A DNA stretch of 64,000 nt from an uncultured Pelagibacteraceae bacterium. Lineage in GTDB: Bacteria > Pseudomonadota > Alphaproteobacteria > Pelagibacterales > Pelagibacteraceae. The position numbers and the translations under genes were made by a program. This document shows positions 25,739 to 42,658 of the stretch, piece after piece. Location: positions 209,445 to 273,444 of the forward strand of contig CACMAX010000001.1 of the NCBI GenBank assembly GCA_902611845.1, read 5' to 3'. Below the pieces are notes generated by a model. That model did no database searches. It saw only the letters and a list, made by a program, of their open reading frames with translations, and had not been told where the DNA came from. Positions within the stretch are counted from its first letter, which is position 1. The number at the start of each line of letters is the position of its first letter.

Positions 25739-25740
25739 AA

Positions 25741-26784: not shown

Positions 26785-26787
26785 TAA

Positions 26788-27282: not shown

Positions 27283-27386
27283 GAAACCAATATCAATTTA
27301 CAGATATTTCCCTTAAATTGCAATTTTTAGCTAAGGACAGTTTAAGTTAGTGACAATCATAATAATAATAATAGTGTATACCAAAT

Positions 27387-28355
27387 ATGAATTATCGAAT
27401 TGATAATCTTCAGTATTGTAAATGGTCTAGAGAAATCTTTGAAATAAATAATAAAGCTGGATTAAATGCGGTTCACGTAACGTTAGTTTATCATGAGGAC
27501 TATGATGAATTACAACAAAGAATACAAGAGTGGAATAAACATTTTGAAGAAAATAAAGATCTTATATTTCTAGGCAATAACTACAATGATATTACAAAAG
27601 CAAAAGAAGAAAATAAAACTGCAATTTTTTTTGGATTTCAAAATTGTTCTCCAATTGAAGATGACATAAGTCTTATAGAAAAAGTACACTCACAAGGTTG
27701 TCGATTTATGCAATTAACTTATAACAACCAATCATTATTAGCCACCGGATGTTATGAAAAAAATGATAGCGGAGTTACTAATTTTGGAAAAGAGGCTATT
27801 AAAGAAATGAATAGAGTAGGTATCGTTGTTGACATGTCTCATTCAGCAGAGAAAAGTACACTTGATGCAATTGAAATTAGCCAAAAACCTATTGCGATCA
27901 CTCATGCAAATCCAACTTTTTGGTTTGAAGCTAAAAGAAATAAATCTACAGAATTATTAAAAGTTTTATCCGATAGTGGAGGAATGTTAGGGTTATCATT
28001 GTATGCTCATCATTTAAAAGATGGAACGAATTGTAAAATAGAAAGTTTTTGTGAAATGGTTGCAAGAACAGTTGAAATTATGGGTATTAATAATGTTGGA
28101 ATAGGATCAGACTTATGTTTGAACCAACCAGACAGTGTAGTTGAGTGGATGAGAAATGGAACTTGGTCAAAATCAAAAAATTTTGGTGAAGGCAGTAAAG
28201 ATAAACCTGGTTTTCCAAAACAACCAGATTGGTTTTTGGATGCAAGAGGATTTAATAATTTAAGTACAGAACTAAAAAATAAAGGTTTTCAGGAAGAAGA
28301 GATAAATAAGATACTTGGCAATAACTGGTTTAATTTTTATAAAGGAATTAATTAA
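27387..28355 (+). CDS. Membrane dipeptidase (M19) family amidohydrolase with an altered metal site
   Basis: QLTYN, VDMSH, ITHAN and GIGSD are present, but IDNLQY and FGFQN replace the usual DGHND and EG motifs. Confidence 0.8.
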   Translation: MNYRIDNLQYCKWSREIFEINNKAGLNAVHVTLVYHEDYDELQQRIQEWNKHFEENKDLIFLGNNYNDITKAKEENKTAIFFGFQNCSPIEDDISLIEKVHSQGCRFMQLTYNNQSLLATGCYEKNDSGVTNFGKEAIKEMNRVGIVVDMSHSAEKSTLDAIEISQKPIAITHANPTFWFEAKRNKSTELLKVLSDSGGMLGLSLYAHHLKDGTNCKIESFCEMVARTVEIMGINNVGIGSDLCLNQPDSVVEWMRNGTWSKSKNFGEGSKDKPGFPKQPDWFLDARGFNNLSTELKNKGFQEEEINKILGNNWFNFYKGIN

Positions 28356-30007
28356 TGCAAGTTCCACTAAGAGATCCTAAAATTGTAATGAAACTTTCTA
28401 GGCTTGGATCGTTTCATCAATCTAAATTATCTTTTCTAAGATCATTTTTAAATGAGTTCAAAGATTGGAGATATAACAGAGATTTGTTTGACTTGAATGA
28501 TAGGGGATATGGAGTTGCTATTTATTCATTTTCAAAAGATAAAAAAACATATTCTTTAGTTTGTTTTGCTAATGAACTTAAAGATGAGGAAAGATCTGAT
28601 AGAGTAATAGCAACTAAATGGGATGCTGCATTTGCTTTGTATGATGGCATTCCTTCAAAAATTGATATTGATAGACTTTCACAAAATGTCCCTAAACAAG
28701 AAGTAGGGAGACTTTCTTATAAAGAACTTACTCTTTCAAGAGCAAATAGATCAGTTAGAGCATTTAATTATGTGGTTGAGTGTTTATCAAAAGGCATCCA
28801 GCCCAATACTAATGAGCTTTCAAAAGTTGGATATTTGTACAGAACAACTGCAGTATATGGCTCAGGAAAATTTGGACTAGCAGACAGGTTTAGAATTAAA
28901 AATAGAGATGAAATAAATGGTCCTTTTAGATTGGAAATGATGTTAGTTTACCTTGTAAGACAATTCACTTTCGATCAAGTCAATCATATAGCAAAACATA
29001 AAAATCCTAAAGATGCTGTAGAATTAGACTTGGATATTTGCAGAAATTTAGGAATTGGAAATTCAACTGGATTAGGAATGGCACCATTTATTGTTAACCA
29101 CCCTTCATTATTAAATAATTGGATTCTCGCTAAAGAGACAGCTTTAAAAAAAATAAGAGAAATAGAAAAAGTATCAGAAGAAGAGTTTAAAATTTTTTAC
29201 AATTGTTTAACAAAATCTTTAAAAAATGTAACTTCATGGAATACTGACAGCGAATACCAAAAGAAAAAAATAAACAATTTAATTAATGATTTACAGCATT
29301 TAATTAATTATTTGAAAGATAATATTGATAAATCAAATTTTTATATATTTGATAAATTATATAACTGGGCAGAGGAAAATTTATCTGAAGAAGGAGTTGA
29401 GTATTTGGTTTCTATAATGATGGAGCCATATAATGAAATAACTGATCCTTTAATTTCTCAAATGAGTTCAGACGAGGATAGTAGTTTTAATATACCTGTA
29501 GACAGAACTATAAATGACCTAAGAGAAATAATTGAGAAAAATTATTCAGATATTTTAAAAATTGATTTTTCAAAAAATGAAAACAATAAAAAATTTTGGT
29601 TCATTTCAAAAAATAAAGAAGAACCTAGGATTGGAGATCGGTTTGAAGATAATGGCTCAGAACTTGAGCAGCCTACAGCTATTGCTAGAGATATTAAAAA
29701 ACTTTATGAAACTATTTTTACATTAAAAAACAGCTTAAAGATTGGCAATTTTCTAGTACAGAACAATGATTTAAGACATATTGTAAGAAGAGTGTTTATA
29801 ACAGAGAAATATCCATATTCTGAAATTCAAGATAACACCATTGGCTCAAAATTAGTTCCTATTGATATGCTAAGACTTAAACTATCTTTTTTTGGGGCGG
29901 TAAAGTTTGATCCAAGATCTGATAAATGGTTAAGGATTTGTATGTTTCAAGGAGCTCCATTACCAAATGAACTGAATTCATTTAATCAATATTGGATATA
30001 TAACTAA
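28355..30007 (+). CDS. Conserved-looking hypothetical protein (550 aa)
   Basis: Long ORF with a TAATG overlap to the dipeptidase; enzyme-like blocks RANRS, RTTAVYGSGKFG, GIGNSTGLGMAPF and FFGAVKFDPRSDKW. Confidence 0.75.
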   Translation: MQVPLRDPKIVMKLSRLGSFHQSKLSFLRSFLNEFKDWRYNRDLFDLNDRGYGVAIYSFSKDKKTYSLVCFANELKDEERSDRVIATKWDAAFALYDGIPSKIDIDRLSQNVPKQEVGRLSYKELTLSRANRSVRAFNYVVECLSKGIQPNTNELSKVGYLYRTTAVYGSGKFGLADRFRIKNRDEINGPFRLEMMLVYLVRQFTFDQVNHIAKHKNPKDAVELDLDICRNLGIGNSTGLGMAPFIVNHPSLLNNWILAKETALKKIREIEKVSEEEFKIFYNCLTKSLKNVTSWNTDSEYQKKKINNLINDLQHLINYLKDNIDKSNFYIFDKLYNWAEENLSEEGVEYLVSIMMEPYNEITDPLISQMSSDEDSSFNIPVDRTINDLREIIEKNYSDILKIDFSKNENNKKFWFISKNKEEPRIGDRFEDNGSELEQPTAIARDIKKLYETIFTLKNSLKIGNFLVQNNDLRHIVRRVFITEKYPYSEIQDNTIGSKLVPIDMLRLKLSFFGAVKFDPRSDKWLRICMFQGAPLPNELNSFNQYWIYN

Positions 30008-30015
30008 AGTAATTA

Positions 30016-30624
30016 ATGAGAAGTTATAGTGAAATTGACACGATTGTTAAACGTTCAACAAAAGCGAAAGGTTTCTCCTGGGGAGTTGCAGAAGAAATAG
30101 GAAAGAACATTAAGCAACTCGAGTTATTTGGTTTACCAGGAATAAAAAACATAAACCAATATTTTAAGATTTTTAATAATGAGAATTTTGAAAATTGCCA
30201 ATCTTTTAACAAAAGCAACAGACCTCAAAACTTTTACTGTCCAATTAAACTTGGATTAAGTTTTTTTGATCAATCTATCTCTATCCAAGAACTAAATGAT
30301 ATAGAAATTGAAAAAATGGCTTACCCTTTGATATTTTTGCCGTTTGTCAGCAGATCTTCTGAAATAATAGGAAAGAGAATTTTTTTAAAGATAGATCAAA
30401 AAGAATTTTTATTAAATTTCAATCAATCAATTTATTCAAATTATTTAAGTAGTGAGGTTGTAGAAAAAGCCGATGTAATTAAAATCCAATTCTTAGAAAA
30501 CAAGAATAATTTTTCCGAAGAAGATTGGAAAGAATTAACAAAATTATCTGAAAACACATTTGTTGAAGAAACAGATGAATTAAAACAAAAAACTGCAGGA
30601 GCAGGATTAATAGATAATGACTGA
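30016..30624 (+). CDS. DUF3726-like protein
   Basis: N-terminus RSYSEIDTIVKRSTKAKGFSWGVAEE and C-terminus ETDELKQKTAGAG fit my recollection of this family; not verified by HMM. Confidence 0.6.
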   Translation: MRSYSEIDTIVKRSTKAKGFSWGVAEEIGKNIKQLELFGLPGIKNINQYFKIFNNENFENCQSFNKSNRPQNFYCPIKLGLSFFDQSISIQELNDIEIEKMAYPLIFLPFVSRSSEIIGKRIFLKIDQKEFLLNFNQSIYSNYLSSEVVEKADVIKIQFLENKNNFSEEDWKELTKLSENTFVEETDELKQKTAGAGLIDND

Positions 30625-30784
30625 TAACTTTGAATATAAATCGGACAAATCAGATAAAAATGAATTAAATGATATTTGTGATGAATGTAAAAAAGAAGAT
30701 GAGACAGTAACTCAAAATTTAATACTCACAGGATATAAACTTTGTAACTCCTGCAGAACATCAAAAACTTTATTTCCACTTTAA
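30617..30784 (+). CDS. Small CxxC-x18-CxxC zinc-finger-like protein (55 aa), missing from the ORF track
   Basis: Hand translation MTDNFEYKSDKSDKNELNDICDECKKEDETVTQNLILTGYKLCNSCRTSKTLFPL. The start overlaps the upstream gene, and the TAA overlaps the stop of the convergent gene (TTAA). Confidence 0.7.
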   Translation: MTDNFEYKSDKSDKNELNDICDECKKEDETVTQNLILTGYKLCNSCRTSKTLFPL

Positions 30785-31326
30785 ATATTCGTACTAATAG
30801 GTAACGAATTAATTTTTGTCATTACGAAAGAAATTGTCAAAAAAGAAATAATTAAAAAAGACAAAAATACAATTCCAAATGCTTTTAAATTTGATTTTAA
30901 ATTTAAAATATGTCGTGTTGCAATGATTAATGAAGCAAAAATCCAAAATTGAGTAAGAAAAATAATTAAAAGCACTAATTCTGGCGTGACAGCAAAAAAT
31001 CTTATTAGTCCTGGAGCATGTGCGTACCCAACGGCTATAAGGACTCTTTTAAATGGAATTTTTCTATCTTTATCAGGAAAAATTTTAACTCCAATTACAA
31101 ATATAAAAATTGCCCATACCAGCCAAGTTAATAATGCTGTTAAACCAGATATACCAACAGACGTTTTAACAATTGTGTTCGCTGCAATAGCACCAGCAAC
31201 CCCATCTAAAATCATGATAAGAATTGCAAAATAAATTCCAGCTTCTCCATAATATCTTGGAGTTCTATAAAGAGTTTTATCAAGCTTTAACGATTTAAAA
31301 ACAATATCTAAAAACTGAGCAAACAT
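30781..31326 (-). CDS. YIP1-family membrane protein
   Basis: About five TM segments and the motif VGYAHAPGL. Confidence 0.65.
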   Translation of the reverse strand: MFAQFLDIVFKSLKLDKTLYRTPRYYGEAGIYFAILIMILDGVAGAIAANTIVKTSVGISGLTALLTWLVWAIFIFVIGVKIFPDKDRKIPFKRVLIAVGYAHAPGLIRFFAVTPELVLLIIFLTQFWIFASLIIATRHILNLKSNLKAFGIVFLSFLIISFLTISFVMTKINSLPISTNI

Positions 31327-31433
31327 TAATTATCTTTATTTTTTTTTTGCGCCTTATATGAAACGATTAATGGGAATATTATTAGAGCAATAGCGATTAT
31401 AATGCAAACAACTATGAAAAAGGTTTTCGTCAT
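31326..31433 (-). CDS. 35-aa single-pass membrane microprotein, missing from the ORF track
   Basis: Hand translation MTKTFFIVVCIIIAIALIIFPLIVSYKAQKKNKDN; its TAA overlaps the YIP1 ATG (TAATG). Confidence 0.6.
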   Translation of the reverse strand: MTKTFFIVVCIIIAIALIIFPLIVSYKAQKKNKDN

Positions 31434-31434
31434 A

Positions 31435-31461
31435 TTTAGGGGGAATTAAATTCCCCCTAAA
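31435..31461. terminator. 12-bp stem hairpin downstream of the aminomethyltransferase gene
   Basis: TTTAGGGGGAAT-TAA-ATTCCCCCTAAA; there is no U-tract 3' of it on the minus strand, so a terminator role is uncertain. Confidence 0.5.
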
Positions 31462-31471
31462 AAAATTTTTA

Positions 31472-32827
31472 TCACTTACTGACTACTTCTCTTGTATTTG
31501 CGTTGTAAGATTCTGTAAATGGAATATCAACTACAACTGCATCAACTGGTTCCCCAGGTTTATCAGAATATTTTTCTGGTAGATGGACTTTAAATTTCGA
31601 TCCAACTTTACCTCTTGGAAAACCATTTGCATTTAGCGTGCCATCAAATGGAACATATCCCATAGCAATATTTTTCCCCTTTTCTGGGTGATACCATGGA
31701 GAAGTTATAAATCCTACAGGCTCACTGCCGTTTTCTGAAATTAACCAAAAATCTGGAGCATATTCTTCAATAGGTTTTCCTCCTAATTCAAGTCCAACTA
31801 ATTGAAGTTTGTAAGGTTTATGACCTGCTTTTAAATCAGCTTTCATTTTCTCGAGAGCTTTTTTACCAATGTAATCTGCTTTTTTGTTCCATTCACCTTT
31901 ACCAGATAAAGAAACTTGATATCCAAGATTACATTGAAATGGATTATGCTCATGATCCATATCTTGTCCCCATGAAAGAATTCCAGCTTGTATCCTTCTA
32001 TGGTGTGCAGGAGCAATTACCATTAAGTTATGTTTTTTACCTGCTTCAAGAACAGCATTCCACATATCTTCGGCATATAAAGTTGCTTCTCTTAAATATA
32101 TTTCAAATCCAGACTCGCCTGAAAAACCTGTTTGAGAAATTATACAACTTCTTCCACCAACTTTTGCAGAAGCCAATCCATAAAAAGGCATGTTATCAAT
32201 ATCAACTTCACTTCCACAAAGATCTTTCATCAAAGCTTTTGCTTTAGGACCTTGAATTTGTACAGGACAAGCATCTATTTCATTAATTTGAACATTAAAC
32301 CTTTCATCTGCATTTACTCCTTGCAGATATAATCCTATATCACTATCTGATAAACTAAACCAAAATTCATCTTTAGAAATTCTTAAAAGAATAGGATCAT
32401 TTAATACTCCTCCATAAGAATTACACAAAATTACATATCTTCCTCTCATTGGAGAAATTTTTGTAGCATCTCTTGTAATTACATAATCAACAAATTTTTC
32501 TGCATCTGGTCCTTTAACTTGTATTTGTCTTTCAACTGCAACATTCCACATTGTTACATGGTTTTTAATTGCTTCGTACTCAACCATTGCACCACCATCT
32601 TCAGGTTTAACATAACCTCTTGGATGATAAATTCTGTTATAAACAGTTGCTCTCCAACATCCTGCTTTCATAGATAAATGCCAGTATGGAGATTTCCTTA
32701 CTCTTGTTGATATTAGCATCTCAACTTTAGTAGGTCCGCTTTGTCTCAAATTATATGGTACTTTTCTATCAGACTGATCTACTGATGTTGTATGTCTTAG
32801 TTTACTATAGTCAAATTCATTAGACAT
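31472..32827 (-). CDS. GcvT-family THF-dependent aminomethyltransferase/demethylase (DmdA/LigM-like, substrate unknown)
   Basis: TRVRKSPY, MWNVAVERQ, NDPILLR, QTGFSGESGFEIY, RRIQAGILSWGQD, NPFQCNLG. Confidence 0.88.
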   Translation of the reverse strand: MSNEFDYSKLRHTTSVDQSDRKVPYNLRQSGPTKVEMLISTRVRKSPYWHLSMKAGCWRATVYNRIYHPRGYVKPEDGGAMVEYEAIKNHVTMWNVAVERQIQVKGPDAEKFVDYVITRDATKISPMRGRYVILCNSYGGVLNDPILLRISKDEFWFSLSDSDIGLYLQGVNADERFNVQINEIDACPVQIQGPKAKALMKDLCGSEVDIDNMPFYGLASAKVGGRSCIISQTGFSGESGFEIYLREATLYAEDMWNAVLEAGKKHNLMVIAPAHHRRIQAGILSWGQDMDHEHNPFQCNLGYQVSLSGKGEWNKKADYIGKKALEKMKADLKAGHKPYKLQLVGLELGGKPIEEYAPDFWLISENGSEPVGFITSPWYHPEKGKNIAMGYVPFDGTLNANGFPRGKVGSKFKVHLPEKYSDKPGEPVDAVVVDIPFTESYNANTREVVSK

Positions 32828-33548
32828 AGTTATTCTCCTTCAACCACTTGTTAGTTTCCTTCAAGCCGCCGAATGTATAAATGTGGAAATAATCAGTATG
32901 CGATTTAACTTTCCCAATTAAATCATTAGGGTCTTTAGGTTTCAATAAATCCAACGCCTTACTAAAATTAGATTTAAGAAAGTTAATGGAATTTTTTGCC
33001 CCTACAATATTAGCAAATTTAATTAAGCTAGATATTTTCATTGGCCCAGTTATTCCAACATGAACTGGTATTGTTTGTTTTGAGATAAAATCTATAATAG
33101 GCTGAGTATCCATTAGCCACTGTGTAACTATATAATCAGCATAAGGCTTTTTATCTATCATAGCTTTTTCTAAATCAGAGTCGGATATATCAGGACTCCC
33201 CTCGGGATGTCCAGCAATTCCAATCTTGATACCATCAAAAAACCCTGTCTCAAGCATTTGATATGAGCTATCAAATTTTCCGATTGGGTCACGACTTCCG
33301 CCTATCACCAAGACCTGCTTAACACCCAAATCTTTACATCTAGAAACATAATCTTTCAGCTGATTTTCATTATTTATTGACCTTGCAGGGAAGTGAGGAA
33401 CTGGATTAAATCCCTCTTTAACTAACTCCCCAGACTGTTGAGCTGTCTCTTTATAATCACCTCCAGGTAGCATTGTAACATAAACATCTTTTACCTTTGG
33501 CAACGTGCTTAAATCAGTTTTAGGACCTATTTCTAAAGAAAAATTCAT
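32820..33548 (-). CDS. metF: Short methylenetetrahydrofolate reductase-family flavoprotein
   Basis: PVPHFPAR, LVIGG, GIAGHPEG, IVTQ, HIYTFGG; 242 aa; overlaps the AMT start. Confidence 0.82.
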   Translation of the reverse strand: MNFSLEIGPKTDLSTLPKVKDVYVTMLPGGDYKETAQQSGELVKEGFNPVPHFPARSINNENQLKDYVSRCKDLGVKQVLVIGGSRDPIGKFDSSYQMLETGFFDGIKIGIAGHPEGSPDISDSDLEKAMIDKKPYADYIVTQWLMDTQPIIDFISKQTIPVHVGITGPMKISSLIKFANIVGAKNSINFLKSNFSKALDLLKPKDPNDLIGKVKSHTDYFHIYTFGGLKETNKWLKENNYV

Positions 33549-33652
33549 AAGTAAATTCTTAATTATTTTATATTCCGTGTCTATAAAAATATTAAACAGC
33601 TGAACACATTGTAACCCATTGTCATGATCTGAAAATTTAATTAAATTTAGTC

Positions 33653-34870
33653 ATGGAAAATAAATTATCTCAAATTACAGAATTATTCTCCAAAACAAGA
33701 CAACAAACTCTATCCCTGTGCGAGAACTTAGAGGCTGAGGATATGGTCATACAGCCCAGTAAAAATGTCAGTCCTCTTAAGTGGCATCTTGGTCACACCA
33801 CATGGTTCTTCGAAAAATTCATCTTGTCAGAATTGGATGAAAGTTACAAACCTTTTAACAAAGATTACAATTACATATTTAATTCGTATTATAATTCTGT
33901 GGGTGAGTACAATCCTCGAAATAAGAGAGGTTCACTAAATAGACCCATCTTAAAAGATGTTGTAAAATATAGACACTATGTAACTGAAAATATTATTGAT
34001 TTTTTAAAAAGGACAAAAAATAACAGGACATCATTTTTAGTTGAACTAGGTTCAAATCACGAACAACAGCATCAAGAATTAATGTTAATGGATATTAAAA
34101 ATATTTTTTACAATAATCCATTGATGCCGACTTATAATTCTAACGATGATAAACCAACTGCTAAAGAAGAAAATGAATTGACATTAGAAACTAGTAAAAA
34201 ATTTAAATATGGAAACAACGAGGATATTTTTTGTTACGATAACGAATTACCAGTATCAGAAATACAATTAGATCCTTTTAAAATATATTCATTTGTTACC
34301 AATGGAGAGTGGAAAGAATTCATTAATGATGGAGGATATAAAAACCATGAGTATTGGTTATCTGATGGATGGGATTTTGTAAATAATAACAAATTACAAA
34401 AACCAATGTATTGGATAGATAATAACAATTATTTTACATTAAATGGTGTAAAAAAAATTGATAATGAAAAGCCAGTTTCTCATATAAGTTTCTATGAAGC
34501 AGATGCATTTGCAAGATACAAAAACAAAAGATTACCAACTGAATTTGAACTAGAGTATTTTTTAAAACAATCTAAGAAAAAAGGTAATTTTTTAGAAAAT
34601 AAAATTTTCCGTGAAGTGGAAGAAAAAGCAGACGATGTTTATGGAAATTTATGGGCTTGGACAAGTAGTAATTACACACCTTACAAAAAATACAAACCTT
34701 ATGAAGGAAATCTAGGAGAATATAATAATAAGTTCATGTGCAATCAGTTTGTCTTAAAAGGCGGCTCACATTCTACGTCTATTAATCATGTCAGAGCATC
34801 TTATAGAAATTTCTTTTACCCAAGTGATACTTGGCAGTTTTGTGGCGTCAGACTAGCTGATGACATCTAG
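33653..34870 (+). CDS. egtB: Ergothioneine sulfoxide synthase EgtB (DinB_2 + FGE-sulfatase domains)
   Basis: SPLKWHLGHTTWFFE, FNSYY, HEQQHQEL (3-His Fe triad), YNNKFM, RASYRNFF. Confidence 0.92.
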   Translation: MENKLSQITELFSKTRQQTLSLCENLEAEDMVIQPSKNVSPLKWHLGHTTWFFEKFILSELDESYKPFNKDYNYIFNSYYNSVGEYNPRNKRGSLNRPILKDVVKYRHYVTENIIDFLKRTKNNRTSFLVELGSNHEQQHQELMLMDIKNIFYNNPLMPTYNSNDDKPTAKEENELTLETSKKFKYGNNEDIFCYDNELPVSEIQLDPFKIYSFVTNGEWKEFINDGGYKNHEYWLSDGWDFVNNNKLQKPMYWIDNNNYFTLNGVKKIDNEKPVSHISFYEADAFARYKNKRLPTEFELEYFLKQSKKKGNFLENKIFREVEEKADDVYGNLWAWTSSNYTPYKKYKPYEGNLGEYNNKFMCNQFVLKGGSHSTSINHVRASYRNFFYPSDTWQFCGVRLADDI

Positions 34871-35832
34871 TGACTAATTTAAAATTAATAAACATAAACA
34901 ATCAAATTCAAGATGATAAAAAATTAATCTTACAAGGATTATTAAATAAAAAACAAAAATATTTACTACCTAAATATTTTTATGATGAAAAAGGTTCGAA
35001 GTTATTTAATAAAATTACAAACCTTAAAGAATATTACCCAACAAACAAAGAGTTAGAAATACTAGGTAGTTCACAAAAAGAGATAAGAAAGAAATTACCA
35101 ATTAATTCAACAATTGTAGAATTTGGTAGTGGCTCAAATAAAAAAATTAATAAATTTATAAATTCATTAAGTGAACCCAAAGAATATATTCCTATAGATA
35201 TTAGTAAGGAATATTTGTTTGAAAATGCATCGATAATTGCAAAAAAATTCTCAGATTTAAAGGTAACAGCAATATGTGCTGACTTTAGTCAGACCGATAG
35301 ATTAAATAAAATTTTAAAAAATAAAAAAAAAATAGTCAGTTTTTTTCCAGGATCGACCATAGGAAATTATTTACCCAAAAATGCAAAAAAAATATTAAAA
35401 AATTTTTCAAAAATCATAGGTAAAAATTCTTATTTAGTAATTGGGGTAGATTTAATAAAAAATAAGAAGACCCTTGAAAATGCTTACAATGATAAATCGG
35501 GAGTTACAGCAAAATTTAATAAAAATATATTAAATGTAGTAAACAAAATTTGTAATTCAAATTTTCAAACAAAAAATTTTGATCATAAAGCATTTTACAA
35601 TTTAAAAAAAAACAGAATTGAAATGCATCTTATTTCAAAGAAAAATTTCACGTTAAAAATTAATAAAAAGAATATTAAATTTACTAAAGATGAAACCATT
35701 CATACTGAAAATTCTCACAAATATTCAAAAAATAACTTTGTTAAATTAGTTAATAAATCTGGATTTAAAGTCTTAAAATATTTTGCAGATAAAAAAAATT
35801 ATTTTGGAGTTTTTTTGTTAAAAGTGAAGTAA
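34870..35832 (+). CDS. egtD: L-histidine N-alpha-trimethyltransferase EgtD
   Basis: PKYFYDEKGSKLF, EYYPT, EFGSGS, PIDIS, FPGSTIGN, AYND, HTENSHK; the GTG start overlaps the egtB stop. Confidence 0.92.
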   Translation: MTNLKLININNQIQDDKKLILQGLLNKKQKYLLPKYFYDEKGSKLFNKITNLKEYYPTNKELEILGSSQKEIRKKLPINSTIVEFGSGSNKKINKFINSLSEPKEYIPIDISKEYLFENASIIAKKFSDLKVTAICADFSQTDRLNKILKNKKKIVSFFPGSTIGNYLPKNAKKILKNFSKIIGKNSYLVIGVDLIKNKKTLENAYNDKSGVTAKFNKNILNVVNKICNSNFQTKNFDHKAFYNLKKNRIEMHLISKKNFTLKINKKNIKFTKDETIHTENSHKYSKNNFVKLVNKSGFKVLKYFADKKNYFGVFLLKVK

Positions 35833-35840
35833 GTTTTATT

Positions 35841-36470
35841 ATGGCTCAAAAAGACGTAGGTAACAAAATTCCCATTTATAAGTTAAAAGACACCGATGAA
35901 GTGATGAAATATTACGATGAATGGGGAGATGGTAATAAATATGATAAGGATATGGTCGATTGGAATTATACAGGACCAAAAGAAACAACAAAAGTATTTT
36001 CAGAATTCCAAAAAAACAAAGACGCAAAAATTTATGATGCTGGTTGTGGAACTGGATTGGTGGGTGTTGAATTAAAAAAATATGGTTTTAAAAATTTTCA
36101 TGGGGCAGATCTTTCAAAAAAGTTATTAGAATTAGTACCAAATGATCTTTATGAAAAGCTTGAACAAGTAGACTTGAATAAACCCATTAATAAAAAAGAT
36201 GACGAATATGACTCTGTTATGTGTGTTGGTACATTTACTTTTGGACATGTAAAGCCACCAGCTTTGGAGGAATTTATCAGGATTACAAAGAATAATGGAT
36301 TTATCTGTTTTACTATTAATGAGGGAATACATGAAGAATATGGTTTTGATAAAAAAATTGAGCAACTTAAAGAGCAAAATAAATGGAAAGAAATAAAATT
36401 TTTTAAATCAGATTACATTGCGAGCAAAGACGTAAATGCTTGGTTAGGGTTATATCAAGTGATAAAATAA
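35841..36470 (+). CDS. Class I SAM-dependent methyltransferase, substrate unknown
   Basis: Motif I IYDAGCGTGLVG, GADLS, CVGTFTFGHV. Confidence 0.88.
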   Translation: MAQKDVGNKIPIYKLKDTDEVMKYYDEWGDGNKYDKDMVDWNYTGPKETTKVFSEFQKNKDAKIYDAGCGTGLVGVELKKYGFKNFHGADLSKKLLELVPNDLYEKLEQVDLNKPINKKDDEYDSVMCVGTFTFGHVKPPALEEFIRITKNNGFICFTINEGIHEEYGFDKKIEQLKEQNKWKEIKFFKSDYIASKDVNAWLGLYQVIK

Positions 36471-36473
36471 ACC

Positions 36474-37649
36474 ATGTCAGAAATTTACAATATTATAGAT
36501 AAACAAAAGTTAGATATTGTATCTAAACCAATTAGTGAAGCTCATGGTTTACCAAATGAATGCTACATCAGTAAAGAATATACTTTAATTGAAAGAAAAA
36601 AATTATTTGAAGATAAGTGGATCGTCATTGGAGTTGGAAGTTCTATTCCAGATGAAGGTGATGTGAAACCAATTGATTTACTTGGAATACCCTTACTTAT
36701 TGTTAGAACAAAAAATAAAGAAATAAAAGTTTTTCATAATATTTGTAGTCATAGAGGAGTTAAATTAGTTAAAGAAGCTGGCAAAATTAGAAATGTTATG
36801 AGGTGCTCATATCATTCATGGTCATATGACTTAGAAGGAAAATTAGTAGCTACACCTCATATAGGAGGCATGAATATTCATCAAACACCTGAATTTGATA
36901 AATCAAAAAGTAATTTAAAAGAGATAAGATCATATATTTGGTTAGATCTAATTATGATTAACATTAACAACAATGAAATTTCATTTGAGGATTATATCAG
37001 TCCTTTAAGTCAAAGATGGGAAAAATTTTGGCCCTTAAAAGATAGAGAATTAATTTATCATGCAAATGATTATGGTTATTTTAAATTAGATGCAAAATGT
37101 AATTGGAAATTTGCAATTGAAAATTATTGTGAAAGCTATCATTTGCCTTGGGTTCATCCAGGATTAAATTCTTATTCAAAGTTAGAAGATCACTATCATA
37201 TTCAAGGTCTTCCAAATCGTTTCGCCGGACAAGGAACAGTGGTCTACAATCCAAGGTTTGAAGGAAAAGAAAAATTTCCTTGCTTTCCTAACTGGCCAAA
37301 AGATAAGGAAAATATAGCTGAGTATGTAGCACTATTTCCAAATGTTATGTTAGGAATTCACAAAGATCATTATTATGCTTATTGGTTAGAGCCAATCAAT
37401 CATGAGCTTACAGTAGAACATATGGAAATTTATTATGTTGGAGATGAAGCGGCAACTTCAACAAAGTATAAAACTTTAAGACAAAAAAATCACAAACAAT
37501 GGGAAGACATTCAAAAAGAAGATGTAGATATAATTCAAAGTATGCAAATAGGCAGAAACTCACCAGCTTATAATGGTGGTAATTTTTCTCCAAAGATGGA
37601 CAATCCAACACATCATTTTCATAAGTGGGTTGCTGGTAATTTAATTTAA
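36474..37649 (+). CDS. Rieske non-heme iron oxygenase alpha subunit (choline monooxygenase/betaine demethylase-like)
   Basis: Rieske motifs CSHRG and CSYHSW; mononuclear site NWKFAIENYCESYHLPWVHP and EDVD. Confidence 0.9.
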   Translation: MSEIYNIIDKQKLDIVSKPISEAHGLPNECYISKEYTLIERKKLFEDKWIVIGVGSSIPDEGDVKPIDLLGIPLLIVRTKNKEIKVFHNICSHRGVKLVKEAGKIRNVMRCSYHSWSYDLEGKLVATPHIGGMNIHQTPEFDKSKSNLKEIRSYIWLDLIMININNNEISFEDYISPLSQRWEKFWPLKDRELIYHANDYGYFKLDAKCNWKFAIENYCESYHLPWVHPGLNSYSKLEDHYHIQGLPNRFAGQGTVVYNPRFEGKEKFPCFPNWPKDKENIAEYVALFPNVMLGIHKDHYYAYWLEPINHELTVEHMEIYYVGDEAATSTKYKTLRQKNHKQWEDIQKEDVDIIQSMQIGRNSPAYNGGNFSPKMDNPTHHFHKWVAGNLI

Positions 37650-37664
37650 AGTTAAAACCTAAAA

Positions 37665-38075
37665 ATGAAAATTATACTAATCATGGGACTTCCAGGCGCA
37701 GGAAAAACTACATTAGCTGATGAACTTGCCCCATTGTTAAATGCAAAAAGATTAAATGCAGATGAAGTAAGAAAAGCTGCAAACGATTGGGATTTTTCAG
37801 AAGAGGGAAGAACAAGACAAGCAAAAAGAATGGCTTACTCTGCATTACAATTAAAAAATGAAGGAAATTATGTGATTGCAGATTTTATTTGTCCAACTCC
37901 AAAGGCAAGAAGTTTATTTCCTGCAGATTATATAGTCTGGGTAGACACAATAAAAGAAGGTAGATTTGATGATACTAATAAAATGTTTGTTAAACCAGAA
38001 AAATATGATTTTCATGTTACCACACAAGATGCTAAGTCTTGGGCACCAAAGATTTTAAAGGAGATAAAAAAATGA
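37665..38075 (+). CDS. Small P-loop kinase, adenylyl-sulfate kinase (CysC)-like
   Basis: GLPGAGKTT, LNADEVRK, WDFSEEGRTRQAKRM, IADFICP; only 136 aa. Confidence 0.7.
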   Translation: MKIILIMGLPGAGKTTLADELAPLLNAKRLNADEVRKAANDWDFSEEGRTRQAKRMAYSALQLKNEGNYVIADFICPTPKARSLFPADYIVWVDTIKEGRFDDTNKMFVKPEKYDFHVTTQDAKSWAPKILKEIKK

Positions 38076-38446
38076 CGTACCAATGGGACAATAAAAAACC
38101 AACAGCTCAAATGTTAGGAAGATGGCAACCGTTTCATGATGGTCACTATACTCTATTTAAGGAAATTATAAAAAAAACAGGACAAGTATGTATTCAAATT
38201 AGAGATGTACAAGGTGTTGATGATAACCCATTTGATTTTGAAACTGTCAAAAAAAATATTGAGGAAAAACTTAATCCAGAGTTTGAGGGTAGGTTCAAAA
38301 TTATGCTTGTCCCTAATATTACAAATATTTGTTATGGAAGAGGTGTTGGATATAAAATTGAAGAAATAGTTTTACCTGAAGAAATTCAAAAAATTTCAGC
38401 AACTAAAATTAGAGCTAAGATGAGAGAAGAAGGTAAATTAAAATAA
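38072..38446 (+). CDS. Small HxGH-motif nucleotidyltransferase (cytidylyltransferase-like superfamily)
   Basis: GRWQPFHDGH, DNPF, ISATKIR; ATGA overlap with the kinase and AGGAG SD. Confidence 0.78.
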   Translation: MTYQWDNKKPTAQMLGRWQPFHDGHYTLFKEIIKKTGQVCIQIRDVQGVDDNPFDFETVKKNIEEKLNPEFEGRFKIMLVPNITNICYGRGVGYKIEEIVLPEEIQKISATKIRAKMREEGKLK

Positions 38447-39220
38447 GTGACTGTAAAAATAAATAAATTATCACCTGGTGTTAAAAGAGTTTTAATTAAT
38501 GATCCAAAAACTTATAATTCCTTATCATACAATACTCTTTCGTCTTTATTAAAAGCATTCAAAAAATTAGATAACGACAAAGAGACTAGAGTTATTATTT
38601 TAGAAGGGGCTGGTAAAGGATTTAGTGCAGGCCATAACTTAAAAGAGGTAAGAGGTATAAAAAATAGATCTAATCATTTAAAACTATTTAAACTTTGTTC
38701 AAAACTAATGATGCAAATAGTAGAAGGAAACAAACCAGTAATAGCAAAAGTTCATGGTGCTGCTTATGCAGCTGGTTGTCAATTAGCAGCTAGTTGTGAT
38801 CTTGCATATAGTACAAACTCAGCAACATTTGCTACACCTGGAGTAAAAATTGGATTATTTTGTAGTACACCAATGGTAGCTGTCAGTCGAAAAATTAGTA
38901 GAAAAAGAATGATGGAAATGCTCTTAACTGGAGATCCAATTACTGCAAAATATGCAAAGGAAATAGGTTTGATAAATGATCATTACAGTCCAAAAACTTT
39001 GAATAAAAAAGTTTTAGATATTGCAAAAAAAATATCTTCAAAATCAAATTTAACCATCAAAATAGGTAAAAAAGGTTTTTATAAACAATTAGAAATGCCA
39101 TTAGGTAAAGCTTACGATTACACAAGTAAGATGATGACACTTAATATGTCATCTTATGATGCTAAAGAAGGTATTAGTGCATTTATCGAAAAAAGAAATC
39201 CAAGTTGGAAAAACAAATAA
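38447..39220 (+). CDS. Enoyl-CoA hydratase/isomerase family protein
   Basis: FSAGHNLKE, AKVHGAAYAAGCQLAASCD, TPGVKIGLFC. Confidence 0.92.
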   Translation: MTVKINKLSPGVKRVLINDPKTYNSLSYNTLSSLLKAFKKLDNDKETRVIILEGAGKGFSAGHNLKEVRGIKNRSNHLKLFKLCSKLMMQIVEGNKPVIAKVHGAAYAAGCQLAASCDLAYSTNSATFATPGVKIGLFCSTPMVAVSRKISRKRMMEMLLTGDPITAKYAKEIGLINDHYSPKTLNKKVLDIAKKISSKSNLTIKIGKKGFYKQLEMPLGKAYDYTSKMMTLNMSSYDAKEGISAFIEKRNPSWKNK

Positions 39221-39280
39221 CCATTAAGTTGAAGTCACTTAAAAAAAAGATTAAGTTGTAATCAAAGGAGAAAATCAATC

Positions 39281-40633
39281 ATGGATGGATGCTGTGGCCC
39301 TGGATATGCTAGTCCTGCAGAAGCAATAAAAGCACCAAAAGAAAAGCTTTTATATACAATAGCTATCTACACAGGGACGGGAATACAAAAACCAGACTAT
39401 TTAGCAACAGTTGATGTTGATCCTCAAAGCCCAACTTATTCTAAAGTAATTCATAGACTTGAAATGCCAGGTATTGGTGATGAATTGCATCACATGGGAT
39501 GGAATGCATGCTCTTCTTGTCATGGCGACTCAAATATGAGCAGAAAATATTTGTTAGTTCCAGGTGTTAGATCAAATAACATTTATGTAGTTGATACTGC
39601 ATCTGATCCTAGGGCTCCTAAAATACATAAAGTAGTTGATGGATCTGAAATAAAGAAAAAAACTAATTTATCAGGACCGCATACAGTTCATTGCCTAGGT
39701 TCTGAAATTATCATTTCTTTTCTTGGAGATGCTCGAGGAGAAGCTCCAGGAGGATATTTACATTTAAATAAAGATTTTGAAATTGTAGGTAGATGGGAAA
39801 ATTCAATGGGAGACATACCTTTTAGTTATGACTTCTGGTATCAACCAAGACACAATGTAATGGTTAGTTCTGAATGGGCTGCTCCTAATACATTCATGCC
39901 TGGATTTGATTTAGAGGAAGTTGGTCATTTAAAATATGGAAGAAGACTTCATGTTTGGGATTTTAAAAAAAAAGAGCCAGTTCAAACGATGTATTTAGGT
40001 GAAGACGGTTTAATACCTTTAGAAGTAAAATTTATGCATAATCCTGATAGTAGTCATGGATTTTGTGGTGCTGCGCTAAGTGCAAATGTAATTCATTTTT
40101 GGAAATCAAAAGAAGGTAAATGGGAATGGGAAAAAATAATTGATGTTGAAAATGAACCACATCCTGATTGGCCAATTCCTGTACCTGGAGTTATGTCGGC
40201 AATATTGGTTTCTATGGATGATAAATATCTCTATATAAATAATTGGCTTCATGGAGATATGAGACAATACGATATTTCAGATCCGCACAATCCTAAATTA
40301 ACTGGTCAAGTTTGGATGGGTGGATTGTTAGGAAAGGCTCCAGAAGTAAATGGTGTTAAAATTGCTGGTGGTCCTCAAATGTATCAATTATCTTTAGATG
40401 GTAAAAGGATGTATGTAACAACATCATTATTTTCTACTTGGGATAATCAATTTTATCCTGAAATAAGAAAACAGGGGGGAGCAATGATTATGATTGATTG
40501 TGATGTTGAAAATGGTGGGATGAAAATTAATAAAGATTTTATTGTTGATTTTGGTAAAGAGCCAAATGGACCTAGTAGGTGCCATGAAAGTAGATATCCA
40601 GGTGGAGATTGCACAAGCGACATCTGGCTATGA
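39281..40633 (+). CDS. SBP56/SELENBP1-type protein, candidate cytoplasmic methanethiol oxidase
   Basis: CCGPGYASP, DELHHMGWNACSS, HTVHC, YDFWYQPRHNVM, PLEVKF, GGPQMYQLSLDGKR, RYPGGDCTSDIWL; no signal peptide. Confidence 0.9.
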   Translation: MDGCCGPGYASPAEAIKAPKEKLLYTIAIYTGTGIQKPDYLATVDVDPQSPTYSKVIHRLEMPGIGDELHHMGWNACSSCHGDSNMSRKYLLVPGVRSNNIYVVDTASDPRAPKIHKVVDGSEIKKKTNLSGPHTVHCLGSEIIISFLGDARGEAPGGYLHLNKDFEIVGRWENSMGDIPFSYDFWYQPRHNVMVSSEWAAPNTFMPGFDLEEVGHLKYGRRLHVWDFKKKEPVQTMYLGEDGLIPLEVKFMHNPDSSHGFCGAALSANVIHFWKSKEGKWEWEKIIDVENEPHPDWPIPVPGVMSAILVSMDDKYLYINNWLHGDMRQYDISDPHNPKLTGQVWMGGLLGKAPEVNGVKIAGGPQMYQLSLDGKRMYVTTSLFSTWDNQFYPEIRKQGGAMIMIDCDVENGGMKINKDFIVDFGKEPNGPSRCHESRYPGGDCTSDIWL

Positions 40634-40995
40634 CAAAGATTACAATCTCAAACAGAAATAACAGTGCATTTGAAGTCAGTGGAAAAAAACCTTTATTAAA
40701 CGAATTAAGAGATCAAGGTGTCGATCTTCCATACGGATGTCAGTATGGAGGATGTATTACATGTGCAGCTAAACTAATAAATGGGGAAGTAGATCAACGT
40801 TCTCAAGTTGCTTTAAATAACAGACAAATAAATGATGGATATATTATTTTATGTGTTGCTAAAGCAAAAACAGATTGCACAATTGAGATAGGAGTTGAAA
40901 GTCATGATAAATTATACCGAAATCCTTTTCTTGATCCTTTAGAGCCACACGAATTAAAAGCAGATATTGCAAGTAAAAAGGATGAAAAAAAATAA
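40630..40995 (+). CDS. Plant-type 2Fe-2S ferredoxin
   Basis: LPYGCQYGGCITC...LCVA; ATGA overlap with the SBP56 stop. Confidence 0.9.
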   Translation: MTKITISNRNNSAFEVSGKKPLLNELRDQGVDLPYGCQYGGCITCAAKLINGEVDQRSQVALNNRQINDGYIILCVAKAKTDCTIEIGVESHDKLYRNPFLDPLEPHELKADIASKKDEKK

Positions 40996-40997
40996 AA

Positions 40998-41447
40998 ATG
41001 AACCATAACGAACCTTATAGCGCTGAATATTTAAAAGATATTTTAAGCTCAGTTAAGACAATTGCTATGGTTGGTGCTAGCCCTGATAAAACTAAATTTA
41101 GTTATGGTGTATTAAGAGTTTTGCACGAAACTGGCTATGATATGATACCTGTAAACCCTAAACCAGGTATAAAGGAAATTAGAAATTTAAAAGTTTATCC
41201 AAATTTATCTGCTATCGATAGACCCGTTGATATGGTTGAAGTATTTAGAAAATCAGAGGATCTTTATGGAATTGCTGAAGAGGCAATATCAATTGGAGCA
41301 AAGGTTTTGTGGGGACAAATCGGTGTAATTAATCATGATGCAGCAAAAATTGCTGAAGATGCAGGTTTAAAAGTAGTTATGAATAGATGTCCAAAAATTG
41401 AACTCTTCAGACCATTTTGGAAACCGCGACTAGATCTTAAAATTTAA
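40998..41447 (+). CDS. CoA-binding domain protein (YccU-like), copy 1
   Basis: TIAMVGASP, IPVNP, VDMVEVFR, LWGQIG, VVMNRCPKIE. Confidence 0.88.
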   Translation: MNHNEPYSAEYLKDILSSVKTIAMVGASPDKTKFSYGVLRVLHETGYDMIPVNPKPGIKEIRNLKVYPNLSAIDRPVDMVEVFRKSEDLYGIAEEAISIGAKVLWGQIGVINHDAAKIAEDAGLKVVMNRCPKIELFRPFWKPRLDLKI

Positions 41448-41455
41448 ATCAAATT

Positions 41456-41881
41456 ATGGATACAACACTTTTAGATGAAAAAATAAAAGAACTATATTTA
41501 AGTTATAGGACGATAGCAATTGTTGGAGCAAGCCCAGACTCAAAAAAAACTTCCAATATAATAATGAAATATTTAAGAAATACAGGTTACAAAGTTTTTC
41601 CCGTTAATCCAGTAACAGATAATAAAATTATACATGGTGAACCAGTTTATAAAAAACTAACGGATATTAAAGATCATGTTGGAATTGTTAATGTTTTTAG
41701 ACCTAGTGAGGAGGCTGAGGAAATAGCAAAACAAACAATAGAAATTGGTGCAAATGTATTATGGTTGCAATTAGGAATTCACAACGAAAATGCAGCTAAA
41801 TTAGTCTCTCAAAATAAAATTTATTATATCTCTAATAAATGTATTAAAAACGAATACGATAGATTATTCAAAACTATATAA
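41456..41881 (+). CDS. CoA-binding domain protein (YccU-like), copy 2
   Basis: TIAIVGASP, FPVNP, IVNVFRP, LWLQLGI, NKCIKNE. Confidence 0.88.
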   Translation: MDTTLLDEKIKELYLSYRTIAIVGASPDSKKTSNIIMKYLRNTGYKVFPVNPVTDNKIIHGEPVYKKLTDIKDHVGIVNVFRPSEEAEEIAKQTIEIGANVLWLQLGIHNENAAKLVSQNKIYYISNKCIKNEYDRLFKTI

Positions 41882-41947
41882 TATCAAATTATTAAGTGTG
41901 ATATTAAGACCTTTTATTTCATTTTAAATTTAAGATAAATTTAAAAT

Positions 41948-42409
41948 ATGAAATCCAAAATTTTATTTTTTTTAATTACATTTTTTTATTTTAATTCTTC
42001 ATTTGCCGATGTTTTAAAACCAAGTGTGAATATAGATCCAAAACAAGTTGTTTTAATTCAATTAAAGGCATTAATGAAAAATGACAGTCCATATAAAGAT
42101 AGAGGGATTGAGCAAACATGGGAATTTGCACATCCAAATAATCAAAGGATGACAGGTCCATTAGATAGATTTAAAAGAATGTTAAAAGGGGCTTCATACT
42201 CGATGCTGATTGATCACAAAGAAAATACAGTAACTGAAATTTACAAATCAAGTTCAATGGCAACTTATGAAGTTGTTGTCTTGGATAAGGACAAACAATA
42301 TTTTAAATTTAAATGGAAAGTTGAAAAGAATAATAAAGAAGGCAATCTTTTAGATTGCTGGCTAACAACAGCGGTTTCACAACCAATACCAATGGGATCA
42401 TCAATATAA
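41948..42409 (+). CDS. Exported protein, DUF4864-like
   Basis: Signal peptide (SSFA-D), WEFAHP, GPLDRFKRM, CWLT. Confidence 0.6.
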   Translation: MKSKILFFLITFFYFNSSFADVLKPSVNIDPKQVVLIQLKALMKNDSPYKDRGIEQTWEFAHPNNQRMTGPLDRFKRMLKGASYSMLIDHKENTVTEIYKSSSMATYEVVVLDKDKQYFKFKWKVEKNNKEGNLLDCWLTTAVSQPIPMGSSI

Positions 42410-42612: not shown

Positions 42613-42658
42613 TAGAATTTTGTTTCGTTAGTAATTAAAATTTAGTAGGAATCTGATA

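What the first reader, a model, noticed from the sequence alone, without database searches (positions are those of the whole stretch)
33653..35832. Ergothioneine biosynthesis genes egtB-egtD in a SAR11-like genome
Both genes are full length with catalytic motifs: the EgtB His triad and the EgtD F/Y/E aromatic-cage positions and GSTIGN. The FNSYY motif matches type II EgtB (Chloracidobacterium-like), which uses free cysteine. That fits the absence of egtA/egtC here, and no egtE lyase is in the window. Established: SAR11 lacks assimilatory sulfate reduction. Inference: spending Cys plus three SAM per molecule implies strong selection for this antioxidant, and an abundant lineage could be an unrecognised marine source of ergothioneine or hercynine. 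The two genes look more A-rich than their flanks, which suggests accessory status.
Basis: partly seen in the sequence, partly recalled or inferred. Interest (0 to 1): 0.7.

Follow-up and report, generated by a model that had tools for sequence, protein, structure and literature searches.

The report
Ergothioneine genes in minority SAR11 lineage
A small subpopulation of the ocean's most abundant bacterium (SAR11) carries an intact, expressed two-gene module for making the sulfur antioxidant ergothioneine; the genes are an ordinary member of a well-known family, already named in public databases, but their presence in SAR11 has not been discussed in the papers searched.

Summary
Two ORFs lie exactly at 33653-34870 (405 aa) and 34870-35832 (320 aa, GTG start overlapping the egtB stop by 1 nt). 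Both exceed NCBI's curated equivalog cut-offs for EgtB and EgtD.

EgtB is about 50% identical to the solved cysteine-dependent type II enzyme from Chloracidobacterium. It matches the published EgtB-II composite active-site motif at all 14 specified positions. It fails the SenA, OvoA and EgtB-I signatures. "WAW" is not an anomaly, because that residue varies within type II. EgtD keeps every histidine-binding residue.

The genome is Pelagibacteraceae (96.5% nucleotide identity to single-cell genomes). No egtA, egtC, egtE or senBC is in the window.

The genes are accessory. They occupy a variable slot that, in 37 informative SAR11 metagenome contigs, holds egtBD once, nothing 23 times, and a betaine-type ABC transporter cassette 13 times. 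They are under strong purifying selection (dN/dS 0.03-0.11) and appear in seawater metatranscriptomes.

The C-S lyase step is unaccounted for. Carriers are a minority of SAR11, so the claim of an abundant source is overstated. This is a new member of a known kind, of moderate interest.

The parts
33653..34870 (+). egtB: type II (cysteine-dependent) hercynine sulfoxide synthase, with a DinB_2 domain and an FGE-sulfatase domain
   Evidence: TIGR03440 scores 490.8 against a cut-off of 360. Pfam finds DinB_2 and FGE-sulfatase. It scores 362 bits, about 50% identity over the full length, against CthEgtB 6qki/6o6l/8qf6, versus 115 bits for type I 4x8b. Its composite motif is xSHHYYRRHQH(Y)YNFF(Y), which is EgtB-II. 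dN/dS is 0.03-0.07. Transcript contigs cover it.
34870..35832 (+). egtD: L-histidine N-alpha-trimethyltransferase (hercynine synthase), translationally coupled to egtB by a 1-nt TAGTG overlap
   Evidence: TIGR03438 scores 351.3 against a cut-off of 290.9, and PF10017 scores 327.7 bits. It scores 154 bits against mycobacterial EgtD structures. Y38, F46, Y55, T163, N166, Y206, M252, E280 and S282 correspond to Mtb Y39, F47, Y56, T163, N166, Y206, M252, E282 and S284 (residue roles from PMC8593015). dN/dS is 0.07-0.11. RNA contigs span the egtB/egtD junction in four runs.
35841..36470 (+). Class I SAM methyltransferase of unknown substrate, 8 nt after egtD. It is linked to egtBD in all SAR11 carriers but is not specific to them.
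   Evidence: Only generic Methyltransf_11/25/31 Pfam hits were found. The best solved relative is human METTL27 at 70.7 bits. It follows egtD in the window, L001, L003 and L081 (collinear or mapped), in L161 (82% lineage) and in L162 (75% lineage). It also occurs in some egtBD-negative contigs: L119, L135, L151, L153 and L154. No homologue lies next to egtBD outside SAR11.
33549..33652 (.). Divergent intergenic region between the MTHFR-like gene and egtB; this is the left edge of the variable slot
   Evidence: Only about 55 nt next to the MTHFR-like start codon are conserved across the egtBD, empty and ABC-cassette variants. The promoter scan was no better than shuffles.
32820..33548 (-). MTHFR-like gene, the conserved left border of the slot; it overlaps the downstream GcvT/DmdA-like gene at 31472-32827
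   Evidence: PF02219 scores 25.5 bits. It is present next to the slot in all informative SAR11 contigs.
36474..37649 (+). Rieske/GbcA-like oxygenase, the right border of the slot
   Evidence: Pfam finds Rieske and Ring_hydroxyl_A. It abuts the MTHFR-like gene directly (121-259 nt gap) in 23 egtBD-negative contigs.

Best explanation
This is a functional two-gene ergothioneine module in a minority lineage of Pelagibacteraceae (SAR11). EgtD uses three SAM to trimethylate histidine to hercynine. The type II EgtB, a non-heme iron enzyme with a three-His site and a Tyr-Tyr catalytic pair, uses O2 to join free cysteine to C2 of hercynine, giving hercynylcysteine sulfoxide. An unlinked or housekeeping PLP enzyme then cleaves the C-S bond to release ergothioneine. 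What is shown: the gene identities, the subfamily, the active-site residues, purifying selection, transcript presence and accessory distribution. What is inferred: cysteine as the sulfur donor, the lyase step, and ergothioneine as the end product. The module sits in a flexible slot inside a conserved methylamine/one-carbon gene region. It was probably exchanged by homologous recombination through the conserved flanks.
For: Both proteins pass curated equivalog cut-offs. EgtB is closest to the solved cysteine-dependent CthEgtB (362 bits). It matches the EgtB-II composite motif of Kayrouz et al. at all 14 specified positions, and it lacks the D/R residues that type I uses for the gamma-glutamyl group. 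EgtD retains all histidine-binding residues. Immediate egtB-then-egtD adjacency is the canonical arrangement, seen in 66 of 80 egtB loci. dN/dS is 0.03-0.11 across three SAR11 lineages, similar to the housekeeping flanks. RNA contigs from four seawater metatranscriptomes cover both genes and span their junction. The same site and gene order occur in lineages whose EgtB is 98%, 82% and 75% identical. There is precedent for tandem egtBD with the lyase encoded elsewhere: Methylobacterium aquaticum 22A, where deleting egtBD abolishes ergothioneine (PMC4621440). A paper title reports that a single fungal gene suffices in yeast (PMC9502471). SAR11 relatives encode SufS, a class V PLP enzyme of the EgtE fold family (549 bits against a cut-off of 475).
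Against: No C-S lyase is in the window, and the rest of the genome could not be searched. The nearest non-SAR11 relatives (58% identity, 26%-GC alphaproteobacterial SAGs) do carry a linked class V aminotransferase after egtD. In SAR11 that slot holds a methyltransferase, so the SAR11 module may have lost its dedicated lyase. No biochemical or metabolite data exist. RNA evidence comes from assembled contigs that may include DNA carry-over; one contig crosses the divergent intergenic region.
Confidence: 0.8

Rival explanations
1. The pathway is truncated. Without a dedicated lyase, the module makes hercynine and/or hercynylcysteine sulfoxide as end products, for example as a betaine solute or a released intermediate, and not ergothioneine.
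For: No PLP lyase is in the window. Relatives at 58% identity keep a linked Aminotran_5 gene that the SAR11 version lacks.
Against: EgtB is under purifying selection as strong as EgtD, which is hard to explain if its product were a dead end. Most type II egtBD loci examined also lack a close adjacent relative of that lyase-like gene: it was found only in L004, from a single AT-rich query. Methylobacterium makes ergothioneine with the lyase encoded elsewhere. SufS-type class V enzymes exist in SAR11 relatives.
Confidence: 0.12
2. The EgtB homologue is really a selenoneine (SenA), ovothiol (OvoA) or ovoselenol (OvsA) type enzyme.
For: It gives a partial score to the SenA model (304 bits). An SBP56 'selenium-binding protein' homologue lies 3.4 kb downstream.
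Against: The SenA score is below its cut-off of 420, and the OvoA score (109) is below 400. The composite motif has S-H and the YY insert, where SenA and OvsA have N-E and a gap. PDB scores are 362 for type II, against 78 for SenA, 83 for OvsA and 57 for OvoA. No senB or senC is in the window. SBP56 is also present in egtBD-negative contigs such as L111.
Confidence: 0.02
3. The linked class I methyltransferase modifies the pathway product, for example by S- or N-methylating ergothioneine, so the SAR11 module makes a derivative.
For: The methyltransferase follows egtD with an 8-nt gap in every SAR11 carrier, across EgtB lineages of 98%, 82% and 75% identity.
Against: The same methyltransferase occurs in egtBD-negative SAR11 contigs next to the Rieske gene or the ABC cassette. 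No homologue accompanies egtBD in 77 non-SAR11 loci. Its best solved relative is METTL27, of unknown substrate.
Confidence: 0.05

Closest known systems
EgtB type II from Chloracidobacterium thermophilum (PDB 6QKI, 6O6L, 8QF6)
   Same: About 50% identity over the full length. It has the same DinB and FGE fold families. The three-His iron site (H48/H136/H140), the Tyr-Tyr pair (Y79/Y80), R89/R92, Q139, Y357 and N386-F387-F388 are all conserved.
   Different: The SAR11 protein is about 30 residues shorter, in loop regions, and has a very AT-rich coding sequence. The 'x' motif positions differ (Y350 for V378, Y389 for P417). Activity is untested.
Methylobacterium aquaticum 22A egtBD (PMC4621440)
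   Same: An alphaproteobacterium with tandem egtB-egtD and the other steps encoded elsewhere. Deleting egtBD abolishes ergothioneine and sensitises cells to heat, UV and sunlight.
   Different: Methylobacterium carries egtA, egtC and egtE homologues at other loci and has a large genome. For SAR11 the rest of the pathway is unknown, and the module is present in only a minority of the lineage.
Mycobacterial egtABCDE pathway (type I EgtB, gamma-glutamylcysteine donor)
   Same: The same overall chemistry: EgtD makes hercynine, and EgtB forms the C-S bond oxidatively.
   Different: Type I uses gamma-glutamylcysteine and needs EgtA, EgtC and EgtE. The window protein lacks the type I motif residues (D, W-D-R) and scores only 115 bits against 4X8B. 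No egtA or egtC is nearby.
egtB-egtD-Aminotran_5 operon in 26%-GC marine alphaproteobacterial single-cell genomes (L004 AG-343-F10; L163 GCA_902522465.1)
   Same: These are the nearest relatives outside the SAR11 clusters (EgtB 58%, EgtD 54%). Their EgtB and EgtD pass the same cut-offs.
   Different: They carry a linked class V PLP gene, EgtE/SufS-like but below both cut-offs, immediately after egtD. They sit in a different genomic context, among cell-envelope glycosylation genes.

Membership tests
EgtB type II (EgtB-II sulfoxide synthase) | N-terminal DinB domain plus C-terminal FGE-sulfatase domain, and a score above the curated EgtB equivalog cut-off | tested here: met
   PF12867 and PF03781 are both found. 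TIGR03440 scores 490.8 against a cut-off of 360.
EgtB type II (EgtB-II sulfoxide synthase) | Composite active-site motif xSHHYYRRHQHxYNFFx (Kayrouz et al. 2024), including the three-His iron site and the Tyr93/Tyr94 pair | tested here: met
   S40, H45, H48, Y79, Y80, R89, R92, H136, Q139, H140, Y357, N386, F387 and F388 all match. The SAR11 homologues at 82-97% identity (P0001, P0002, P0023, P0024) keep all 14; the 75%-identity P0025 has Y in place of F388.
EgtB type II (EgtB-II sulfoxide synthase) | Co-encoded with the hercynine-forming methyltransferase EgtD | tested here: met
   egtD overlaps the egtB stop codon by 1 nt. The same arrangement is seen in 66 of 80 egtB loci.
EgtB type II (EgtB-II sulfoxide synthase) | Catalyses O2-dependent C-S bond formation between hercynine and free L-cysteine | not testable with these tools
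   This is inferred from homology to CthEgtB, which prefers cysteine (PMC10903977).
EgtD (histidine N-alpha-methyltransferase, Methyltransf_33) | Score above the equivalog cut-off, plus conserved histidine-binding residues (Y39, F47, Y56, T163, N166, Y206, M252, E282, S284 in Mtb numbering) | tested here: met
   TIGR03438 scores 351.3 against a cut-off of 290.9, while the EasF model is below its cut-off. All nine residues are identical (roles; the role of M252 in specificity is from my own knowledge of the EgtD literature).
Complete ergothioneine pathway | A PLP-dependent C-S lyase (EgtE/Egt2) that converts the sulfoxide to ergothioneine | tested here: inconclusive
   None is in the 64-kb window. 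SufS occurs in related SAR11 contigs.
EgtB type I (gamma-glutamylcysteine dependent) | Motif xSDH--RRHQHYYNWDR, with egtA and egtC partners | tested here: not met
   The window protein has H45 for D, the YY insert is present, and it has F387-F388 for W-D. It scores 115 bits against 4X8B, versus 362 for type II. No egtA or egtC is in the window.
SenA (selenoneine synthase) | Motif xNEH--HRHxHYYN(F/Y)(F/Y)R, a score above the NF041186 cut-off, and clustering with senB and senC | tested here: not met
   It scores 304 against a cut-off of 420. It has S40/H45 where SenA has N/E, and the YY insert is present. No senB or senC is in the window.
OvoA (ovothiol synthase) | Motif RxYH--DxHxHYF(Y/F)AFx and a fused C-terminal methyltransferase domain | tested here: not met
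   TIGR04344 scores 108.8 against a cut-off of 400. It scores 57 bits against 8KHQ. The protein ends after the FGE domain.

The most novel reading that the evidence does not exclude
A minority SAR11 ecotype runs a stripped-down, two-gene ergothioneine pathway in which a housekeeping PLP enzyme such as SufS does the lyase step. This ecotype is a quantitatively relevant source of ergothioneine in the surface ocean for non-producing plankton, in a public-good arrangement. The variable slot would then record a trade-off between making this sulfur-costly betaine and importing other betaines.
Probability: 0.12. Interest if true: 0.65.

Novelty: new member of a known kind. Interest (0 to 1): 0.38.

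Why it matters
SAR11 depends on external reduced sulfur (established knowledge; Tripp et al. 2008, from my own knowledge) and has a minimal genome. A lineage that keeps, under strong purifying selection, a pathway costing one cysteine and three SAM per molecule therefore points to a real benefit, plausibly protection against light or oxidative stress as shown in Methylobacterium. It also gives a concrete, testable candidate bacterial source of ergothioneine in seawater. And it is a clean example of gene-cassette swapping at one slot in SAR11 populations. The enzymes themselves are ordinary. EgtB-II has more than 16,000 known members, and annotation pipelines already name these Pelagibacter proteins.

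Tried and rejected
- **SenA, OvoA, OvsA or EgtB-I identity:** rejected by cut-offs, PDB scores and the composite motif.
- **WAW as a sign of inactivity:** rejected; the residue is variable within type II.
- **Mobile-element origin:** there are no tRNA genes, Rfam hits, integrase or transposase domains, or meaningful flanking repeats.
- **Promoter and terminator scan:** no better than shuffled sequence.
- **The methyltransferase as a conserved pathway partner:** no homologue lies beside egtBD outside SAR11, and it occurs without egtBD.
- **'Make-or-take' idea:** I considered whether the alternative ABC cassette imports ergothioneine. Its binding protein best matches a glycine betaine/proline-binding protein (7yle, 163 bits), with no hit to an ergothioneine-binding protein.
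- **Composition as evidence of foreign origin:** only egtD deviates.
- **Literature searches:** searches for ergothioneine with SAR11, Pelagibacter or seawater metabolomics returned nothing relevant.
- **First read lay-down:** it failed on a filtered stretch at 35299-35343 and was repeated on a shorter span.

Full report
**Observation.** egtB is at 33653-34870 (ATG, 405 aa). egtD is at 34870-35832 (GTG, 320 aa). The egtB stop and egtD start overlap by one base (TAGTG), which is typical of translational coupling. Against NCBIfam, EgtB scores 490.8 bits on the EgtB equivalog TIGR03440 (cut-off 360). It falls below the SenA cut-off (304 against 420) and the OvoA cut-off (109 against 400). EgtD scores 351.3 on TIGR03438 (cut-off 290.9). 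Pfam shows the expected DinB_2 plus FGE-sulfatase architecture for EgtB and Methyltransf_33 for EgtD, both covering the models end to end.

**Which EgtB.** Among solved structures, the best matches are the three depositions of the cysteine-dependent Chloracidobacterium thermophilum enzyme (6qki, 6o6l, 8qf6). They score 362 bits at about 50% identity over residues 16-405. Other families score far lower: type I Mycobacterium EgtB 115 bits, OvsA 83, SenA 78, EgtB-IV 69 and OvoA 57.

Kayrouz et al. (PMC11030361) define each subfamily by a 17-position composite motif. EgtB-II is xSHHYYRRHQHxYNFFx. I mapped these positions through a MAFFT alignment that included the Cth residues printed. The window protein reads S40, H45, H48, Y79, Y80, R89, R92, H136, Q139, H140, (Y350), Y357, N386, F387, F388, (Y389). 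That matches all 14 specified positions. H48/H136/H140 are the iron ligands. Y79/Y80 correspond to the catalytic Tyr93/Tyr94 of CthEgtB (PMC10903977).

The SenA motif requires N-E at positions 2-3 and has no YY insert. The type I motif requires D and W-D-R. Neither fits.

CthEgtB has WVW, and type II relatives show A, V, L, M, C or S at that position; WEW belongs to type I.

**EgtD.** I mapped the window protein onto M. tuberculosis EgtD (7scf) using the alignment. Y38, F46, Y55, T163, N166, Y206, T213, M252, E280 and S282 are identical to Mtb Y39, F47, Y56, T163, N166, Y206, T213, M252, E282 and S284. PMC8593015 describes most of these as the histidine-binding site.

**Organism and context.** Window 25653-42867 is collinear, at 96.5% nucleotide identity, with contigs of two Pelagibacteraceae single-cell genomes, AG-905-M17 and AG-909-F14. 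The window as a whole is 30.6% GC and carries typical SAR11 methyl-group and one-carbon genes. These include an OpuAC glycine-betaine transporter, sarcosine oxidase subunits, two DMGDH-like genes, ETF and ETF-QO, and formate-THF ligase. It has no tRNA gene and no Rfam hit.

Among the 58 ORFs scanned, none is a class V aminotransferase, a glutamate-cysteine ligase, an Ntn amidotransferase, a selenophosphate synthetase or a SenB-like glycosyltransferase. So egtA, egtC, egtE and senBC are absent from the window.

**Accessory status.**

egtD is the most AT-rich gene in the window (GC 0.209, z -2.6), but egtB is average.
- *Species-representative genomes:* only three Pelagibacteraceae carry a close EgtB (98-99%). 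The next hit is 58%, and all others are below 50%.
- *Metagenome contigs:* I anchored 80 contigs on the flanking GcvT-like gene (86-99% protein identity to the window) and classified the gene next to the MTHFR-like neighbour. Of 37 informative contigs, 1 has egtB. In 23 the Rieske oxygenase directly abuts (121-259 nt gap). In 13 there is a cassette of about 2.2 kb, made of an OpuAC-type binding protein plus an ABC permease. Longer forms add BHMT-like and DMGDH-like genes.
- *Slot boundaries:* only about 55 nt next to the MTHFR-like start are shared by all variants. There are no flanking repeats or recombinase genes. Replacement by homologous recombination through the conserved flanks is therefore the likely mechanism; this is an inference.
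- *DNA depth:* in four marine metagenomes chosen because they contain the genes, summed contig depth over egtBD is roughly 0.6-17% of the depth over the conserved flanking genes at 90% identity or more (my arithmetic on the bins; contig depth is a rough measure).

Carriers are thus a minority of SAR11. The EgtB cluster still holds 757 near-identical sequences in public data.

**Is it functional?**

- *Conserved position:* the module occupies the same site, with the same gene order, in lineages whose EgtB is 98%, 82% (L161) and 75% (L162) identical.
- *Selection:* Nei-Gojobori dN/dS against these lineages is 0.03-0.07 for egtB and 0.07-0.11 for egtD, within the range of the housekeeping flanks (0.01-0.2).
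- *Transcripts:* assembled contigs from four seawater metatranscriptomes cover both genes at 92-99% identity or better. In each run at least one contig spans the egtB/egtD junction, which is consistent with co-transcription.
- *Caveat on the RNA:* these are contigs and DNA carry-over is possible. One contig crosses the divergent intergenic region.

**The missing step.** Type II EgtB produces hercynylcysteine sulfoxide, which needs a PLP C-S lyase. The nearest relatives outside SAR11 are two 26%-GC alphaproteobacterial single-cell genomes (L004 and L163). They carry egtB-egtD followed at once by a class V aminotransferase. That protein resembles EgtE and SufS but scores below both cut-offs.

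In SAR11 that position holds a class I methyltransferase, whose best solved relative is METTL27. This methyltransferase is present in all SAR11 carriers. It also occurs in some non-carriers, and never beside egtBD in 77 other loci. I therefore do not count it as part of the pathway.

There are precedents for an unlinked or non-dedicated lyase. Methylobacterium aquaticum has tandem egtBD with egtE elsewhere, and deleting egtBD abolishes ergothioneine (PMC4621440). A paper title reports that a single fungal gene enables production in yeast (PMC9502471). Related SAR11 contigs carry a sufCDSU cluster whose SufS passes its cut-off, so a class V PLP enzyme is available in the lineage. Whether it acts on the sulfoxide is untested.

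**Novelty.** Full-text searches found no paper linking ergothioneine to SAR11 or Pelagibacter. Public annotation already names cluster members 'ergothioneine biosynthesis protein EgtB' and 'L-histidine N(alpha)-methyltransferase [Candidatus Pelagibacter sp.]'. The enzymes are unremarkable members of a family of more than 16,000 sequences. What is modestly new is the setting: a sulfur-auxotrophic, streamlined organism holding the module as one of several alternative cassettes at a single slot, apparently without a dedicated lyase.

**Verdict.** This is a new member of a known kind, with interest of about 0.38.

Noticed in passing
window 33549-36473; loci L083, L085-L087, L101, L103, L110, L119, L135, L137, L154, L157, L160: The space between the MTHFR-like gene and the Rieske oxygenase is a variable slot in SAR11. 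The alternatives to egtBD are an empty slot or an OpuAC-type binding protein plus an ABC permease; longer forms add BHMT-like and DMGDH-like genes. The binding protein best matches a glycine betaine/proline-binding protein (7yle).
   Followed up: yes
L004:8001-11295 and L163:8001-11340: Two 26%-GC marine alphaproteobacterial single-cell genomes carry a three-gene operon, egtB-egtD-Aminotran_5. The third gene is EgtE/SufS-like but scores below both curated cut-offs, so it may be an undescribed lyase subtype for type II pathways.
   Followed up: partly
window 39281-40633 (+): A full-length SBP56 'selenium-binding protein' homologue (PF05694, 692 bits). It gives a weak match to methanethiol oxidase MtoX (162 bits against a cut-off of 650). 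It is also present in egtBD-negative SAR11 contigs, so it is not linked to the module.
   Followed up: partly
window 31472-33548 (-): An overlapping pair of an MTHFR-like gene and a GcvT/DmdA-like gene (DmdA model 239 bits against a cut-off of 410). It is probably a THF-dependent demethylase of unknown substrate.
   Followed up: no
window 28355-30624 (+): A 550-aa protein with no Pfam or NCBIfam match, followed by a DUF3726 protein. The pair is conserved in order across most SAR11 contigs examined.
   Followed up: no
window 37665-38446 (+): A small P-loop kinase, APS-kinase-like but below cut-offs, overlaps a 135-aa ORF. That ORF carries a GRWQPFHDGH motif reminiscent of NMN adenylyltransferases (27 bits against a cut-off of 127). 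Together they may form a split NadR-like pair.
   Followed up: partly
window 34870-35832: EgtD is compositionally extreme: 52% of its residues are F, Y, N, K or I, and its GC is 0.209. Even so, it keeps all active-site residues and has a dN/dS of about 0.1.
   Followed up: yes
L114, L136, L148 (for example L148:5994-9651): In some SAR11 contigs a sufC-sufD-sufS-sufU cluster lies about 5 kb from the GcvT-like gene, where the window has the DUF3726, 550-aa and M19 peptidase genes. This suggests a second variable region on the other side of the locus.
   Followed up: partly
window 33192-34140 (run X4): One metatranscriptome contig spans the 5' part of the MTHFR-like gene, the divergent intergenic region and the start of egtB. 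This could be DNA carry-over or antisense/read-through transcription.
   Followed up: no
L025 and L066 (Rhodanobacteraceae MAGs): A Rieske oxygenase 25% identical to the window's lies divergently next to egtB in two unrelated gammaproteobacterial MAGs. This is probably coincidence.
   Followed up: no
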